64,000 nucleotides of DNA from Candidatus Krumholzibacteriia bacterium (GTDB taxonomy: Bacteria > Krumholzibacteriota > Krumholzibacteriia > Krumholzibacteriales > Krumholzibacteriaceae): positions 32,001-96,000 of the forward strand of contig CAWIIQ010000002.1 in assembly GCA_963836185.1 (NCBI GenBank). Direction: 5' to 3'. The stretch's first letter is position 1, and each line of letters opens with the position of its first letter. The position numbers were made by a program, and so were the translations under genes. Below the pieces are notes generated by a model. That model ran no database searches. It worked only from the letters and a program-made list of their open reading frames with translations, and was not told the origin of the DNA. Shown here piece after piece: positions 45,567-52,740 of the stretch.

Positions 45567-45596
45567 TTGACATATCCAGCTCCATTGTGCTACAAT
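45567..45596 (+). promoter_or_regulatory. Near-consensus sigma-70 promoter for the secreted-protein cluster
   Basis: TTGACA (45567)-18 bp-TACAAT (45591) with an extended -10 TG. Confidence 0.7.
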
Positions 45597-45722
45597 TCCC
45601 ATTGTCGAGTAAGTTAACGGTATCTCCAACTTAATAGGCGGAAGGGGGAAGTGACTAGCCCGGTTCTACTTAGTTTACCTTTAAGGTCCCAAACCTTTTA
45701 GGAGGTTTAGGAGGTTAACACG

Positions 45723-48600: not shown

Positions 48601-51600
48601 TTGAAAAGAGTAGATGCTGGATCCGTGTCCAGACGGATTATATATACGTTCCTCTTAACGGCTGTTTTCTTCATGGCCGGATCCTTGTTTTCATCGCGCG
48701 GAGCCTGCGCTGCCCTGGCAGGCGTAAAGGTACTCCGCTCCGACGGGTCCTCAGTCACTTTCGAGATATCGGTGCCCTCTCCACGTGTAGAGAGCGGCAG
48801 TGACGGTTCGAGGGTCGTCCTCGACGGATACGGCACATTTTCTCCTCCCGGAGCGCTTCTGTTTCCCGCGAGGACCTTTCATGTCGCGGTGCCCGCTCTG
48901 GGCGAGCCTTCCATTTCCTGGACAGTCACCGACAGTGAAGCGATAGGTCCCCTCACGCTTTCCCGTGTCATGGGCGAAAGGTTCATAAGGTACGGAGATG
49001 ACGGCATCCCCGTCACGGAGACATATCTTCCCGAAGATCCATGGAGCGGCGGTCCGCCCATGGAAGTCGTCACCTCTGTGCTACCTGCGATGATGGGAAG
49101 GCAGAGAGTCATGCCGGTACGGGTGAGCCCGTTGACCGAGCGCGACGGCAGCTTCACCCTTGCGAGGAAGATCACCGTCACAGTCTCTTTCGGCACTGCC
49201 TCCGGTTCACTGCCGGAACGGTCCGATCCGTCTGCGTCGCCGGCGCTCTCGGGCGCGTGGAAACGTATGTACGACAGGGTCCTTGTCAATCCCGCGGACA
49301 CCGAGCGGTTGATAAGCCCGGTAAAAGACAGGGCCGTGATGCGTTCACCTATGGCTCCGGGGAAGAAACTCAAGATAAGGATCCCCGAGACAGGGGTGTA
49401 CTCTGTGCGCGCCGACTCCCTCATCGCTTCCGGGCTTTCCCCTTCGCTGTCCAACAACGGATTCGCGTTGAAGAAGCTCTTCTACGACGATACAGAGCCC
49501 GACCTGGCCAGGGAGGTCGATATCCCTTACCGGGTGATCAAGGGTTCCGGCTCGGCAGCCGATATATTCGAAGGCGACGATCTGCTCGTCTTCTTCGCCA
49601 TGGGGATAAAGGACGACGTGGATGCCGGCGACACCATGGCTGTTTTCAATACTTACAACCTCATATGGCTCGTAGAGGATGAAGCGGGGGCAGTGATGCA
49701 GGACGGCGCCGGGTTCCCTTCGGGCTCAGGGACGCGGCAGACTGATTTCCTCCATGTAGAAAAAGCGAGGAAGGATACCTGGTACAACAAGTATGTCAGG
49801 GCGGGCATGAAGGACTTCAACTTTATTGCCGGCCCGGTAAATGGCGAGAACGCAGTTGCCGTCACTATCCGAAACGTTTCGCCCGGCACGATCTACTCTG
49901 TTCACGTGCGTATTGCTGGAAACGAGAAGAGCAACGCGAGCCAGGACCTCGATTTTTATCTCCGCAATCCCCTGGGTACCCGGCTGCTCGGAAGCGGTGT
50001 AATATCCGAGACGAAGGAAATGGTATTTGATTTTAACAATATGATCTCTTTCTCGCTTACCGAGGGTACTAACGAGATCGTCGTCACGAGTCGTGAAGAG
50101 ACATATGGGTTCCTCATAAACGATCTCGCCGTGAAATACATGAGGGAGACGGCGGTGCATGATGATTACCTCGATTTCACGGTGGGGCAGGATGCCGGAA
50201 ACAGAGAGATCGAGATCACTGGATTCAGCGGGCAGGACGGATATCTTGTCGAGCTGACCGATCCTTTTGTGCCGGTCTTCCACGATATGCCGGCCGACTC
50301 ATTCATCGCTGACGGGGGATCGTACACTCTTCGACTCACTGTCCCCGCGGCGACCGACAGGCATTTCGTGGCCCTGGGCCGCGGCGCGGGGATGCACATC
50401 AACAATATCTGGATCGAGCCCGAAGCGGATGCCGCGAACAGTCTGCTGACAAGCCCCGGTCCCTACAACACGCTTGTGATCGCGCACCCGGACTTTCTCC
50501 CGCCGGTCAGCGACTATCTCTCACAGTATGTCTCGTGGAGAGAGGCGCAGGGGTACAGGATCCTCGTGGCCGATGTGGTGGATGTCTACGATGAATTCAA
50601 CGGCGGACTGGTATCAGCCGAAGCTATCAAGAGATTCATCAGGCATGGAGTCGAGACCTGGGGCGTTGAGTTCGTGCTTCTGGTAGGCGACGCGAGCGAG
50701 GACCATCGCAGGATCTTCATCGGTGATCCGCCCGATGTCAACGGGTCGGCGCCGGACTATGTGCCCTCATATACATACAGTGTGAATGTTATCGGCAGGG
50801 ATGATGACGAGGTGGTCGCCGCAGACAAGTATTACGAGTTTCTCGACGAGGCGCCCCCCTCCGGGTACGGCTCTCCTCCTTCAGGGTTACAGTACGCTCC
50901 GGCTGCCGCGTACCCCGACGTCTTCGTCGGCAGGCTGCCCGTCGGGCGCGAGGTCGAACTCAGGGCCCTTCTGACGAAGATGTACAGATTCGAGGAGCCT
51001 TCCGGCTACGATGCGTGGCGCAGGTCGATAGCGCTCTTTTCCGACGACGCCTGGTCGGGATACCTCTCGACGTATGCCTTCAACGACATAGAAAAACATT
51101 TTGAGTACGGTATGGACTCTGTAGCCGTCAAGATCGAGGAATCGCTGCCCGGAGGATTTGCCGTCAGCAGGCTTCATCTTTCCAAATGGACGGACGGGGT
51201 GCATGACGATCCTACTGCCGGTGGTTCCGATATCCTCAGAGAGTCTACCGACTCTACACGCCGGTATTTCACGCCCTACCTCAACAGGAAACTCAACGAC
51301 GGCTGCCTCTTTTTCTCTTTCCAGGGGCACGCGTCGAGGTCGAACTTCTCGACGGAAGCAGGTTTTTCCAACTTCAGCCAGTATCAGGATGTAGACAGCC
51401 TTCGCACAGACAGAAATCACATATTTTTCGGTGTCGGATGCCATATCAGCGATTTCGCGCGTATGCTCGAGTATTCCCGTTCCGGACTCGATGGACCGAA
51501 CGGGGACTGCATAACCGAGCAGCTCCTGTTTAAATCAAGGGCCGGCGCGGTCGGAACGTACGCCAGCACGGGATTCGAGTATCTGCTGGAGAACAAGTAT

Positions 51601-52740
51601 CTCTGCACAACGATGCACGAGGTGTTTTTCCAGAGGCCCCCGTCAGACCTGATCCCGCCGGAAAACGGTCAGACAGGGGCGAGATGGATCCTCGGCGAGG
51701 CATTTACGGCGGGCGAGATCGAACATCTAGGGTCGTCGTCATCATATGCTTACGGGCAGATCTACAGGTATGTCCTGCTCGGCGATCCGATGCTCAAAGT
51801 CGATCCGGGACCGCCGCTGATGACTGTGTCGGCAGACTGGGGAGACGGGATGAGTGAGCTTCCCGCCGATACGCTTCGATCCCGGAACAGTACCAATACG
51901 TGCAGCCTCATGTTCAGCGCGAGCGATGTGGTAGGCCTCGGCGATATCACCTTCGAGGTCGATGGAGAGGACAGGAGCGGCGACCTGACAGTTACGCCGA
52001 CCGTGGATGAGGACCTCGATTTCGCGAGGGGTTACGAGGCGAGGGTAGACTATACGGTCAACCTCGAGGAACATTCGCTCGTATTCAGCACACATTCTCC
52101 TGACGGACGTGAAACAGGCATGACCGAACTCCATGTCGCCCTTTCGATGATGCTGTACAACGGTTCGCTGGCGATCCCGCCAGGTGGAGATTCACCATCC
52201 GAGGGAGGCTTCCTGCTCAAGATGCAGTTCCCGGTCTGGCTCGATGAAGCCCCGGAGATCAGTTTCGACGGGCTCCTTCTCGACGGTGTGTCGGTCACAG
52301 TCCCCGACTCCCAGGATTCTACTCTCTGGGAGGCAAGGTTTACGCAGACACTGGCAGCGGGCAATCATGTCCTGACCGTGGCCGTGGGAGAGTTTGAGGC
52401 CGACTATCCCTTCTCGGTAGGGGGAAGCGGTCTGGTAATGGATGCTTTCAACTTCCCGAATCCGTTCGACGGCGGCACGAATATCTGCTATTCGCTCAAT
52501 GTCGATGCTGATGCCGGAATCATTATGATCTACAACGTCAGCGGTATCCTGATCAGGGAGGTCACGCTCCCGCGCGACCTGCTCGGAGCTGCGCCTCCCG
52601 GAGCTCCGAACGCATACTGGTGGGACGGCAGGGACCTTGCGGGCGATAATGTCGCCAACGGGACATATATCTATATGATCGAGATCGAGAAGGATGGCGG
52701 AAAAGTCAGTTATACGGGCAAGGCCGTCCGCCTCGAGTAG
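48601..52740 (+). CDS. C25 family cysteine peptidase (gingipain/PorU-like) with C-terminal FlgD-Ig/T9SS-like domain
   Basis: KIRIPETGVY; DVYDEFNGG; FVLLVGDAS; VGRLPV; His/Cys dyad in FQGHAS and GVGC; YVLLGDP; NFPNPF...WDGRD..G..VANGTYIY. Confidence 0.9.
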   Translation: MKRVDAGSVSRRIIYTFLLTAVFFMAGSLFSSRGACAALAGVKVLRSDGSSVTFEISVPSPRVESGSDGSRVVLDGYGTFSPPGALLFPARTFHVAVPALGEPSISWTVTDSEAIGPLTLSRVMGERFIRYGDDGIPVTETYLPEDPWSGGPPMEVVTSVLPAMMGRQRVMPVRVSPLTERDGSFTLARKITVTVSFGTASGSLPERSDPSASPALSGAWKRMYDRVLVNPADTERLISPVKDRAVMRSPMAPGKKLKIRIPETGVYSVRADSLIASGLSPSLSNNGFALKKLFYDDTEPDLAREVDIPYRVIKGSGSAADIFEGDDLLVFFAMGIKDDVDAGDTMAVFNTYNLIWLVEDEAGAVMQDGAGFPSGSGTRQTDFLHVEKARKDTWYNKYVRAGMKDFNFIAGPVNGENAVAVTIRNVSPGTIYSVHVRIAGNEKSNASQDLDFYLRNPLGTRLLGSGVISETKEMVFDFNNMISFSLTEGTNEIVVTSREETYGFLINDLAVKYMRETAVHDDYLDFTVGQDAGNREIEITGFSGQDGYLVELTDPFVPVFHDMPADSFIADGGSYTLRLTVPAATDRHFVALGRGAGMHINNIWIEPEADAANSLLTSPGPYNTLVIAHPDFLPPVSDYLSQYVSWREAQGYRILVADVVDVYDEFNGGLVSAEAIKRFIRHGVETWGVEFVLLVGDASEDHRRIFIGDPPDVNGSAPDYVPSYTYSVNVIGRDDDEVVAADKYYEFLDEAPPSGYGSPPSGLQYAPAAAYPDVFVGRLPVGREVELRALLTKMYRFEEPSGYDAWRRSIALFSDDAWSGYLSTYAFNDIEKHFEYGMDSVAVKIEESLPGGFAVSRLHLSKWTDGVHDDPTAGGSDILRESTDSTRRYFTPYLNRKLNDGCLFFSFQGHASRSNFSTEAGFSNFSQYQDVDSLRTDRNHIFFGVGCHISDFARMLEYSRSGLDGPNGDCITEQLLFKSRAGAVGTYASTGFEYLLENKYLCTTMHEVFFQRPPSDLIPPENGQTGARWILGEAFTAGEIEHLGSSSSYAYGQIYRYVLLGDPMLKVDPGPPLMTVSADWGDGMSELPADTLRSRNSTNTCSLMFSASDVVGLGDITFEVDGEDRSGDLTVTPTVDEDLDFARGYEARVDYTVNLEEHSLVFSTHSPDGRETGMTELHVALSMMLYNGSLAIPPGGDSPSEGGFLLKMQFPVWLDEAPEISFDGLLLDGVSVTVPDSQDSTLWEARFTQTLAAGNHVLTVAVGEFEADYPFSVGGSGLVMDAFNFPNPFDGGTNICYSLNVDADAGIIMIYNVSGILIREVTLPRDLLGAAPPGAPNAYWWDGRDLAGDNVANGTYIYMIEIEKDGGKVSYTGKAVRLE

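What the first reader, a model, noticed from the sequence alone, without database searches (positions are those of the whole stretch)
45567..52740. Candidate protein-sorting system: secreted proteins with a C-terminal TEExxWGAIK tag beside a PorU/gingipain-like C25 peptidase
Seen: three consecutive small genes encode signal-peptide proteins ending VATEEESWGAIKSMYR, VGTEESSWGAIKSMMD and DSTEESTWGAIKIQF. The tag is conserved even though the first protein's body does not resemble the other two. The next gene on the same strand is a 1379-aa C25 peptidase with a His/Cys dyad and an FlgD-Ig/CTD-like tail. Established: in Bacteroidota the C25 enzyme PorU cleaves C-terminal sorting domains and links cargo to surface glycolipid. 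Inference: the ~15-residue tail is a short export or anchoring signal, distinct from the T9SS CTD, and may be processed by this enzyme. Envelope glycan genes lie immediately upstream.
Basis: partly seen in the sequence, partly recalled or inferred. Interest (0 to 1): 0.85.

Follow-up and report, generated by a model that had tools for sequence, protein, structure and literature searches.

The report
Short end-tag on cohesin-like proteins
Three small exported cohesin-shaped proteins, each broken by a frameshift in this assembly, end in a 15-residue tail that also ends 28 other, mostly unrelated exported proteins of this uncultured bacterium. Their genes lie in a widely conserved row between a dockerin-carrying protein and a PorU-like peptidase, which is predicted, but not shown, to cut the tail and fix them to the cell surface.

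Summary
The tail is real. The motif [TA]-E-E-x-[ST]-W-G-x-I-K, followed by 3-6 residues and a stop, ends 31 ORFs in this 3.5-Mb genome. These fall into 20 BLAST groups, and paralogues of the same bodies carry a T9SS C-terminal domain instead. The motif occurs in 148 of 151 genomes of the phylum and 55 of 61 of the Eisenbacteria phylum, and only at chance level in 81 Bacteroidota. No Pfam model, NCBIfam model or paper I searched describes it. Earlier sessions of this scan found the same tag on other DNA.

New here:
- Each of the three window genes carries one frame break. Frame breaks are common in this assembly, and same-genus genomes have these genes intact.
- The small proteins have a cohesin fold (Z up to 12.7).
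- The gene upstream encodes an Ig-like X-module plus dockerin.
- The row dockerin protein, then 1-5 tagged cohesin-like genes, then this C25 subfamily recurs on one contig in at least 41 genomes.

The link between tag and C25 rests on this synteny alone. The other 45 tagged loci with flanks show no match to this C25, and it is one of 6-7 paralogues. The canonical PorU/PorV pair lies elsewhere. Whether the tail is cleaved, and what reads it, is untested.

The parts
45723..46367 (+). Secreted 214-aa protein: Ig-like X-module plus dockerin-like module with two D-x-[NT]-x-D-x-x-[VC]-N-L-S-D-F repeats. First gene of the conserved row.
   Evidence: AF2 model has pLDDT 93.5. The top 9 Foldseek hits are type II X-dockerin modules (E about 1e-4). 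2y3n_B dockerin gives TM 0.79 and rmsd 1.6 A over 57 residues. A homologue has a weak NF041540 dockerin_GC hit (E 0.047). An Atlas neighbour cluster has PF00404 on 19% of members. No Pfam hit at E<=10. Homologues were found in 143 of 151 genomes of the phylum.
46442..46992 (+). Gene A: small exported protein with the tag. Broken by one frame change between 46663 and 46732.
   Evidence: Intact orthologues of 184-186 aa are in L043, L156 and L157. It is at best a remote relative of the B type: 3 of 10 A-type bodies match a B-type body-only profile, and none from this genus.
46945..46989 (+). Tag of gene A (ATEEESWGAIKSMYR).
47179..47719 (+). Gene B: cohesin-fold exported protein with the tag. 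Broken by one frame change at about 47273.
   Evidence: Body-only profile gives E 7e-32. The family model has the cohesin fold.
47672..47716 (+). Tag of gene B (GTEESSWGAIKSMMD).
47927..48463 (+). Gene C: cohesin-fold exported protein with the tag. Broken by one frame change at about 47963, inside the signal peptide.
   Evidence: A relative's contig leaves out one base at 47963. Body-only profile gives E 2.6e-51. It is 74% identical to the intact L043 orthologue.
48419..48460 (+). Tag of gene C (STEESTWGAIKIQF).
48601..52740 (+). PorU-like C25 cysteine peptidase, 1379 aa, with signal peptide, a long N-terminal region of no known family, a catalytic domain (625-1067; His910, Cys947) and a FlgD_ig/T9SS-type C-terminal domain.
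   Evidence: Its N-terminal 600 aa has no Pfam hit. Full-length orthologues at 43-75% identity lie right after tagged gene arrays in 5 other contigs. It is 20-25% identical to this genome's other C25 paralogues.
52820..53527 (+). 235-aa protein of no known family. It is kept downstream of the C25 gene in L018, so it may or may not belong to the unit.

Best explanation
The three genes end in a real, portable C-terminal tag ([TA]-E-E-x-[ST]-W-G-x-I-K plus 3-6 residues). This genome puts the tag on 31 Sec-exported proteins in 20 sequence groups. At least two of the three are cohesin-fold modules. In at least 41 related genomes they lie between a gene for an X-module-plus-dockerin protein and a PorU-like C25 peptidase. 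The tag likely marks proteins for fixing at the cell surface. The C25 enzyme is predicted to cut it and attach its operon's cohesin modules, as PorU does with T9SS cargo. The dockerin protein would then dock on them.

Shown:
- The tag, its strict end position and its portability.
- Its range across phyla.
- Its exchange with T9SS C-terminal domains on homologous bodies.
- The two folds.
- The conserved gene row.
- The intact catalytic dyad.

Inferred:
- That the tag leads to the surface.
- That it is cleaved.
- That this C25 is the enzyme.
- That the dockerin-like module binds the cohesin-like modules.
For: Tag:
- 26 of 29 core-motif hits lie 3-6 residues before a stop.
- There are 31 tagged ORFs (2 chance-looking rows dropped) in 20 BLAST groups once tails are removed.
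- Bodies include FG-GAP, beta-helix, LTD and thioester+Big_1.
- 23 of 31 have a signal-peptide-like start in frame. 7 of the 8 others are frame-broken; the eighth shows a signal peptide further into its open frame.
- 67 of 73 full-length tagged ORFs from other genomes have such a start.
- In the scan of 185,579 species genomes, 85 of 124 strict-pattern matches have the stop 3-6 codons after the Lys.
- The W-G-x-[VIM]-K-x-[LMFIV]-Y pattern occurs in 148 of 151 genomes of the phylum against 13 reversed-pattern control matches. It occurs in 55 of 61 of the Eisenbacteria phylum (includes the unpublished G170) and 7 of 10 of a small allied phylum. In 81 Bacteroidota it gives 11 matches against 11 control matches.
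- Genus g57 has shifted genome-wide to W-T-x-V-K-x-L-F: 33 matches, 0 controls, and 0 in the window's genome. This argues for one common reader.

Same position as a sorting domain:
- The genome has 115 ORFs ending in a T9SS-type CTD (Pfam-checked on three).
- Cohesin-like, FG-GAP and beta-helix bodies occur with either the tag or the CTD.

Tail structure: a low-confidence linker plus a short helix, not packed on the body (pLDDT 53-70 against 97-98).

Folds:
- Cohesin: VIA-align top 18 hits are all cohesins, Z 9.6-12.7; Foldseek agrees.
- X-dockerin: Foldseek.
- Atlas leads: PF00963 on 16% and PF00404 on 19% of members of neighbour clusters.

Gene row:
- 26 of 30 dockerin-gene loci have tagged small ORFs within 1.5 kb.
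- 12 of 12 loci from other families hold 2-5 small exported genes with the tail or an F-for-W form between the dockerin gene and the C25 gene, and all but one match the family profile.
- The dockerin gene and the C25 N-terminal region lie within 8 kb on one contig in at least 41 genomes (coordinates).

Enzyme:
- His and Cys are invariant in 21 orthologues.
- The only solved relative by sequence is PorU, 6za2_A.
- PorU cuts CTDs and attaches cargo by a sortase-like reaction (PMC4560394 and PMC8545088; I saw search listings and the start of abstracts only).
Against: - No call shows cleavage, attachment, surface location or binding.
- 45 of 50 non-redundant tagged loci with flanks have no tblastn match to this C25, so it cannot be shown to read the tag in general.
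- The genome has 6-7 C25 paralogues. The best PorU candidate sits beside a PorV-like gene at C1:2036-2041 kb, not here.
- The window's enzyme scores 130.6 bits against the PorU cut-off of 420.
- A second C25 paralogue lies beside a cohesin-like protein that has a CTD, not the tag. In one genome of family f9 the C25 gene is paired with the dockerin gene with no cohesin-like or tagged gene within 16 kb. The enzyme's conserved partner may therefore be the dockerin/cohesin pair rather than the tag.
- In the Eisenbacteria genome searched, the tag is common, but the family profile matched only tails. The nearest C25 homologue has no tagged neighbour.
- This genome has only 2-3 dockerin-like modules against 15 cohesin-like domains, which is unlike a cellulosome.
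- How a 15-residue tail would take a periplasmic protein across the outer membrane is unexplained.
- GldL and GldM were not found with their TIGR models. This is inconclusive, because the controls did not ring either.
Confidence: 0.4

Rival explanations
1. The tail is a non-covalent docking peptide: a short amphipathic helix that plugs into an unidentified envelope receptor and is never cut. The C25 peptidase is in the row for another reason, for example to mature the dockerin protein or the cohesin modules, and has nothing to do with the tag.
For: The tail is predicted as a free linker plus a helix with W, I, M/L and Y on one face. W, G and K are invariant while bodies are 20-50% identical. 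The concerted change in genus g57 fits a specific protein reader. Most tagged loci have no C25 nearby. C25 is paired with the dockerin gene without tagged genes in L151, and with a CTD-bearing cohesin-like protein at C1:258-262 kb.
Against: No candidate receptor recurs beside tagged genes. The only recurring untagged neighbour cluster is held together by CTD similarity alone. The tag replaces a covalent-anchoring signal (the CTD) on homologous bodies. The operon C25 keeps its catalytic dyad across the phylum.
Confidence: 0.3
2. The tail is a compact type IX secretion signal. One of the PorV-like barrels and SprA read it, and the housekeeping PorU paralogue beside PorV removes it. The window's C25 is simply another T9SS cargo protease.
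For: The genome has SprA, 4-5 PorV-like genes, 115 CTD proteins and a C25 gene beside the best PorV-like gene. The tag and the CTD alternate on the same bodies. The tag-bearing phyla searched all carry several C25 genes.
Against: Described T9SS signals are folded domains of about 70-100 residues, and no CTD model matches the tail. The tag is at chance level in 81 Bacteroidota, where T9SS is known. It does not explain why a distinct C25 subfamily stays linked to tagged genes in at least 41 genomes. GldL and GldM were not detected (inconclusive).
Confidence: 0.15
3. The tail is a membrane-seeking amphipathic helix that holds exported proteins on a membrane face, in the manner of the C-terminal helix of PBP5-type carboxypeptidases (recalled, not from a call).
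For: Predicted helix with a hydrophobic face and flanking Lys/Arg. The position of the end is loosely fixed, at 3-6 residues.
Against: The helix is only about 9 residues long. The invariance of W-G and K, and the lineage-wide switch G to T and Y to F, point to a specific partner rather than lipid.
Confidence: 0.1
4. The tail is only the conserved end of one paralogous family, or a chance resemblance, and the genes are decaying pseudogenes.
For: All three window genes are frame-broken. 7 of the 31 tagged ORFs form one BLAST family.
Against: The ORFs fall into 20 BLAST groups, with unrelated Pfam domains. 28 groups are found among 73 ORFs from other genomes. Same-genus genomes have the genes intact. 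Frame breaks are common throughout this assembly.
Confidence: 0.02

Closest known systems
T9SS type A C-terminal domain with its sortase PorU (Porphyromonas gingivalis; PF18962/TIGR04183, NF033707, PDB 6ZA2)
   Same: Both are C-terminal signals on Sec-exported surface proteins. A C25 peptidase with its own CTD is encoded nearby. PorU is the only solved relative of the window's enzyme by sequence. The tag and the CTD alternate on homologous bodies.
   Different: The tag is about 15 residues of linker and helix, not a folded domain of 70-100 residues, and no model matches it. It is at chance level in Bacteroidota. The enzyme scores far below the PorU and PorU2 cut-offs and is not next to PorV.
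Anchoring scaffoldins of cellulosomes: a cohesin plus a cell-surface anchor (SLH in Clostridium thermocellum SdbA/OlpB; LPXTG/sortase in Ruminococcus flavefaciens ScaE, PDB 2ZF9), bound by X-module-dockerin (PDB 2B59, 5G5D)
   Same: A cohesin-fold module is followed by a C-terminal anchoring-type signal, and a neighbouring gene encodes an Ig-like X-module plus dockerin. ScaE itself is among the fold matches (Z 9.0).
   Different: The host is a diderm FCB-group bacterium. No Pfam cohesin or dockerin match was found. There are only 2-3 dockerin-like modules per genome, and none on enzymes here. The anchor is an undescribed tag. Binding is untested.
Sortase-assembled pilus operons of Gram-positive bacteria (several pilin paralogues with a C-terminal sorting signal plus a dedicated sortase)
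   Same: A row of 1-5 paralogous small beta-sandwich proteins, each with the same C-terminal signal, is followed by a dedicated enzyme of a transpeptidase-capable family. Gram-positive pilin domains follow the cohesins in the fold list (Z 8-9.5).
   Different: The enzyme family is different (C25, not sortase). There is no LPXTG, no membrane-spanning segment and no evidence of polymerisation.
Tripartite C-terminal sorting signals (LPXTG/sortase, PEP-CTERM/exosortase, GlyGly-CTERM/rhombosortase)
   Same: All are short conserved motifs at the extreme C-terminus of many unrelated exported proteins of one genome.
   Different: Those signals have a motif, a hydrophobic helix and a basic tail. Here only 3-6 mostly polar residues follow the motif.

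Membership tests
T9SS type A C-terminal domain (PF18962, TIGR04183, PF13860) | C-terminal folded domain of about 70-100 residues that matches the family models | tested here: not met
   The tail is about 15 residues. No Pfam or NCBIfam family matches the last 30 residues or the whole proteins, even at E<=10.
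T9SS type A C-terminal domain (PF18962, TIGR04183, PF13860) | Sits at the end of Sec-exported surface or secreted proteins of many families | tested here: met
   31 ORFs in 20 groups, most with signal peptides. The same bodies occur with a CTD instead.
PorU, T9SS sortase (NF033707) | Score over the equivalog cut-off (420 bits) | tested here: not met
   130.6 bits. PorU2 (NF052324) gives 73.7 bits against a cut-off of 450.
PorU, T9SS sortase (NF033707) | C25 catalytic domain with a His/Cys dyad | tested here: met
   PF01364 gives E 2.4e-55. QGHA and GCHIS are present. His and Cys are invariant in 21 orthologues.
PorU, T9SS sortase (NF033707) | Encoded with PorV and works in the attachment complex | tested here: not met
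   The best PorV-like gene (112 bits, under its cut-off) lies beside another C25 paralogue at C1:2036-2041 kb. The complex itself is not testable here.
PorU, T9SS sortase (NF033707) | Keeps its own T9SS-type C-terminal domain | tested here: inconclusive
   FlgD_ig gives E 7.7e-6 and 26.2 bits against a cut-off of 27. Residues about 1280-1365 match the ends of dozens of ORFs in other genomes.
Cohesin (PF00963) | Match to the sequence family | tested here: not met
   No Pfam hit at E<=10. As a lead only, an Atlas neighbour cluster has PF00963 on 16% of its members.
Cohesin (PF00963) | Nine-stranded jelly-roll cohesin fold | tested here: met
   The VIA-align top 18 chains are all cohesins, with Z 9.6-12.7 and rmsd 2.3-3.2 A over 122-134 residues. 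The Foldseek top hits are cohesins. The model is of the L041 orthologue, with body pLDDT 97-98.
Cohesin (PF00963) | Binds a dockerin | not testable with these tools
Dockerin / type II X-dockerin | Two calcium-loop-plus-helix repeats (D-x-N-x-D ... D) after an Ig-like X-module | tested here: met
   Both repeats are in the sequence and in the 45-member consensus. D157, D168, D190 and D201 are invariant. The top 9 Foldseek hits are X-dockerin modules, and 2y3n_B gives TM 0.79.
Dockerin / type II X-dockerin | Match to the sequence family (PF00404) | tested here: not met
   No Pfam hit at E<=10. A homologue hits NF041540 dockerin_GC weakly, at E 0.047 and 14.1 bits against a cut-off of 29. As an Atlas lead, PF00404 is on 19% of a neighbour cluster.
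Tripartite sorting signals (LPXTG, PEP-CTERM and the like) | Motif followed by a hydrophobic membrane-spanning stretch and basic residues | tested here: not met
   Only 3-6 residues follow the motif's Lys, and most tails end in Y/F/H then R/K.

The most novel reading that the evidence does not exclude
A second, undescribed surface-sorting pathway of FCB-group bacteria outside Bacteroidota. A 15-residue helix tag replaces the 80-residue T9SS domain. Dedicated PorU-like C25 transpeptidases read it. In this operon they use it to fix, or even chain together, cohesin modules into a surface scaffold on which an X-dockerin protein docks. This would be a cohesin-dockerin display system built with a sortase-like enzyme in a diderm bacterium.
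Probability: 0.25. Interest if true: 0.85.

Novelty: new variant of a known kind. Interest (0 to 1): 0.72.

Why it matters
The tag ends tens of exported proteins per genome, up to 65 pattern matches in one genome, in whole uncultured phyla. No model or paper I searched names it, so these proteins are currently annotated without any destination.

This locus gives the first concrete handle on the machinery. It is a gene row, conserved across the phylum, that couples tagged proteins of a known binding fold to a specific C25 subfamily and a dockerin-bearing partner. That turns 'unknown reader' into three small proteins and one enzyme domain that can be expressed and tested in vitro.

Tried and rejected
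- Complex prediction (cohesin-like residues 21-180 of A4 with X-dockerin residues 22-214 of A5) was never run. The calls between (89, 96, 101, 103) were not sent on. No complex result exists for this pair or for the C25-tail pair.
I used the genome search instead.
- Neighbour clustering of 50 tagged loci found no recurring untagged family except one joined only by CTD similarity.
- A tag-like LSGAWKRMYERVLVNP stretch in the C25 N-terminal region is kept only in close orthologues and in no paralogue. I dropped it.
- The family profile A1 found full-length cohesin-like proteins in the WOR-3 genome and weaker ones in the Fibrobacter genome. In the Eisenbacteria genome and two other genomes it found only tails. 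A tag-binds-cohesin idea therefore has no phyletic support.
- The WOR-3 phylum is near chance: 14 matches against 8 controls in 41 genomes.
- Laying contigs of four runs gave patchy cover of relatives only. It informed just the base at 47963.
- GldL and GldM were not found, but the controls did not ring either.
- Literature searches found nothing relevant. Searches for WGAIK, WGxIK, WGRIK, WGKIK, WGXIKXXY and SWGAIK gave five unrelated papers. Krumholzibacteriota with cohesin, dockerin or T9SS gave nothing on this phylum. PorU plus sorting signal plus these phyla gave 0 papers.
- I did not correlate C25 copy number with tag number across genomes.

Full report
**What is at the coordinates.** The three quoted tails are present in stop-to-stop frames ending at 46992, 47719 and 48463. 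In each gene, however, the start codon and signal peptide lie in a different frame from the tagged body. tblastn with intact orthologues shows one frame break per gene:
- Gene A: residues 1-101 map at 46442-46732 and residues 79-186 at 46663-46989, in another frame.
- Gene B: the frame changes at about 47273.
- Gene C: the frame changes at about 47963.

Orthologous loci have all the genes intact, at 178-195 aa. These are L043 (four genes) and the same-genus L156 and L157. A relative's short-read contig lacks one base at 47963.

Breaks are common in this six-contig assembly:
- SprA is in two frames.
- 42 of 115 CTD-ending ORFs lack a signal-peptide-like start in frame (heuristic).
- 7 of the 31 tagged ORFs are visibly broken.
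- Earlier notes on this genome report other broken genes.

I therefore read the breaks as most likely assembly errors. Only reads of the source sample can settle this.

**The tag is real and portable.**
- The core xExxxW[GS]x[IVL]K occurs 29 times in 62,975 six-frame ORFs. In 26 cases it lies 3-6 residues before the stop. The other three, at 38, 49 and 71 residues, look like chance.
- A wider rule gives 33 ORFs. I dropped two as chance-looking, leaving 31.
- Without their tails they fall into 20 BLAST groups, the largest with 7 members.
- Pfam finds FG-GAP repeats, right-handed beta-helix, a lamin-tail domain, and thioester plus Big_1 in four of them. It finds two weaker matches under the curated cut-offs (NosD, CBM_20) and nothing in the other 21 of the 27 scanned.
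- No Pfam or NCBIfam model matches the tail, even at E<=10.
- In an AF2 model of an intact orthologue, the body has pLDDT 97-98. The last 19 residues have 53-70 and form a linker and a short helix that does not pack on the body.
- Across 38 family members W, G and K of the tail are invariant, while bodies are 20-76% identical.

**Range.** It gave 124 distinct matches, and in 85 of them a stop follows 3-6 codons after the Lys. The 85 come from MAGs labelled Krumholzibacteriota, Eisenbacteria, Latescibacterota, Gemmatimonadota/-etes, WOR-3, UBP1 and Fibrobacter(aceae), plus unnamed bacteria. The rest come from scattered taxa and are about as many as my own estimate of chance.

A looser pattern (W-G-x-[VIM]-K-x-[LMFIV]-Y) gave these results:

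| Group searched | Genomes with a match | Matches vs reversed-pattern controls |
|---|---|---|
| The window's phylum | 148 of 151 | 13 control matches by my count |
| The Eisenbacteria phylum | 55 of 61 (54 of 60 without the unpublished G170) | 3 control matches |
| A small allied phylum | 7 of 10 | 41 vs 0 |
| Bacteroidota | 11 of 81 (one match each) | 11 vs 11 |
| WOR-3 phylum | 12 of 41 | 14 vs 8 |

Of 73 full-length tagged ORFs from other genomes, 67 have a signal-peptide-like start, and they fall into 28 BLAST groups.

In genus g57 the pattern is missing. The operon genes there end in W-T-x-[VI]-K-x-L-F. That variant occurs 33 times in four g57 genomes, with 0 controls, and 0 times in the window's genome. 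Such a concerted change over dispersed genes argues for one shared reader.

**Same place as a sorting domain.**
- The genome has SprA, PorV-like genes and 115 ORFs ending in a FlgD_ig/Por_Secre_tail-type domain. This count comes from my own profile, and Pfam confirmed the domain on three.
- Homologues of tagged bodies carry that domain instead of the tag. This holds for FG-GAP, beta-helix and the cohesin-like body.
- The cohesin-like body occurs 15 times: 8 with the tag, 5 in four large CTD proteins (one with two copies), and 2 with neither.
- Tagged ORFs are short (open frames 56-405 aa in this genome; median 226 aa for the 73 full-length ORFs of other genomes). CTD ORFs have a median of 753 aa.

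**What the window genes are.**
- The B-type small protein has a cohesin fold. The 18 best VIA-align chains are all cohesins, with Z 9.6-12.7 and rmsd 2.3-3.2 A over 122-134 residues. Foldseek agrees.
- The gene upstream (45723-46367) models at pLDDT 93.5 as an Ig-like domain plus two loop-helix repeats. Its nine best Foldseek matches are type II X-module-dockerins. A dockerin alone superposes at TM 0.79 and rmsd 1.6 A over 57 residues.
- The two repeats D-x-[NT]-x-D-x-x-[VC]-N-L-S-D-F are plain in the sequence and in the consensus of 45 homologues.
- Sequence-level leads agree: a weak dockerin_GC hit, and Atlas neighbour clusters with Cohesin on 16% and Dockerin_1 on 19% of members.
- Gene A is at best a remote member. 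A B-type body-only profile matches 3 of 10 A-type bodies, and none from this genus.

**The conserved row.**
- The dockerin-protein family is in 143 of 151 genomes of the phylum.
- In 26 of 30 fetched loci, one or two tagged small ORFs follow within 1.5 kb.
- The N-terminal 600 residues of the C25 protein have no Pfam family. They find a match at E<=1e-10 in 94 of 151 genomes, including 38 of 39 genomes of the window's order.
- Comparing the listed coordinates, both genes lie within 8 kb on one contig in at least 41 genomes. That is 26 of 38 in the order, 12 of 24 stronger matches elsewhere, and three weaker ones. Most of the rest are on different short contigs or fall in unlisted rows.
- In 12 of 12 loci fetched from other families, 2-5 small exported genes ending in the tail or in an F-for-W form lie between the two genes. 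All but one match the family profile, and in the most distant loci the tail is E-x-[ST]-[WF]-G-x-[VIL]-K-x-L-Y.
- Full-length C25 orthologues at 43-75% identity follow tagged arrays in five other contigs of the global scan.
- In one f9 genome the C25 and dockerin genes are adjacent with no cohesin-like or tagged gene in 16 kb.

**The enzyme.**
- It has a C25 domain (E 2.4e-55) and a near-threshold FlgD_ig end.
- His and Cys are invariant in 21 orthologues.
- It scores far below the PorU and PorU2 cut-offs.
- PorU (6za2_A) is its only solved relative by sequence, at E 2.2e-5.
- It is 20-25% identical to the genome's other paralogues. One of those sits beside the best PorV-like gene. Another is gingipain-like and sits beside a cohesin-like CTD protein.
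- Tag-bearing genomes of other phyla have 7-11 C25 matches each.

**Reading.**
- Shown: a portable end tag, its range, its exchange with CTDs, two folds that in other bacteria bind each other, and a phylum-wide row that ends in an apparently active PorU-like enzyme.
- Inferred by analogy with anchoring scaffoldins (a cohesin plus a surface anchor) and with PorU's sortase-like reaction (PMC4560394 and PMC8545088; I saw search listings and abstract starts only): the tag fixes proteins at the surface, this C25 processes its operon's modules, and the dockerin protein docks on them.
- Against: most tagged genes have no C25 nearby, the enzyme's deepest partner is the dockerin gene, and nothing shows cleavage or export. 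I therefore hold the full mechanism at about 0.4 and a non-covalent docking peptide at about 0.3.

**Novelty.** I found no description of the tag in Pfam-A or NCBIfam or in the paper library. Earlier sessions of this scan reported the same tag on other DNA, with the machinery unknown. What this window adds is the cohesin/X-dockerin/C25 row and the g57 variant.

Noticed in passing
G095:C5 (L216 2394-5009) and genomes G095, G096, G103, G136: Genus g57 uses a variant tag, W-T-x-[VI]-K-x-L-F, at dispersed loci and in the operon alike. The W-G...Y form is missing or rare there.
   Followed up: partly
whole genome G000; e.g. C2:331131-335548 (SprA): Frame breaks are frequent in this six-contig assembly. 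SprA is split over two frames. 42 of 115 CTD-ending ORFs have no signal peptide in frame.
   Followed up: partly
G000:C1:317702-322996 (L214): A 1764-aa protein has two cohesin-like domains, Big_5 and SWM repeats and a T9SS-type C-terminal domain. It has a scaffoldin-like build.
   Followed up: partly
G000:C1:258478-262418 (L215): A gingipain-like C25 paralogue (propeptide, C25, C25_C, Por_Secre_tail) lies divergently beside a 478-aa cohesin-like protein that ends in a T9SS domain rather than the tag.
   Followed up: partly
G000:C3:60498-61049: A second copy of the X-dockerin gene is 62% identical. It lacks its first 30 residues and has an in-frame TGA. No cohesin-like or C25 gene lies beside it.
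   Followed up: partly
window 49246-49293 (C25 residues about 216-231): The stretch LSGAWKRMYDRVLVNP loosely resembles the tag (S-W-G-A-I-K-S-M-Y-R). It is kept in close orthologues only and in none of the paralogues.
   Followed up: yes
window 43090-45441 (- strand): A 783-aa protein joins a polysaccharide pyruvyl transferase domain to FrhB/FdhB-like N- and C-terminal domains.
   Followed up: no
G310, G317, G324, G331, G337, G343 (WOR-3 phylum): Six WOR-3 genomes each have a single W-G-K-I-K-A-I-Y match with near-identical DNA. This is probably one conserved protein rather than a tag set.
   Followed up: no
G000 whole genome: GldL and GldM (the T9SS motor) were not found with TIGR03513 and TIGR03517, although SprA, PorV-like genes and 115 CTD proteins are present. 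The control genomes did not ring either, so this is open.
   Followed up: partly
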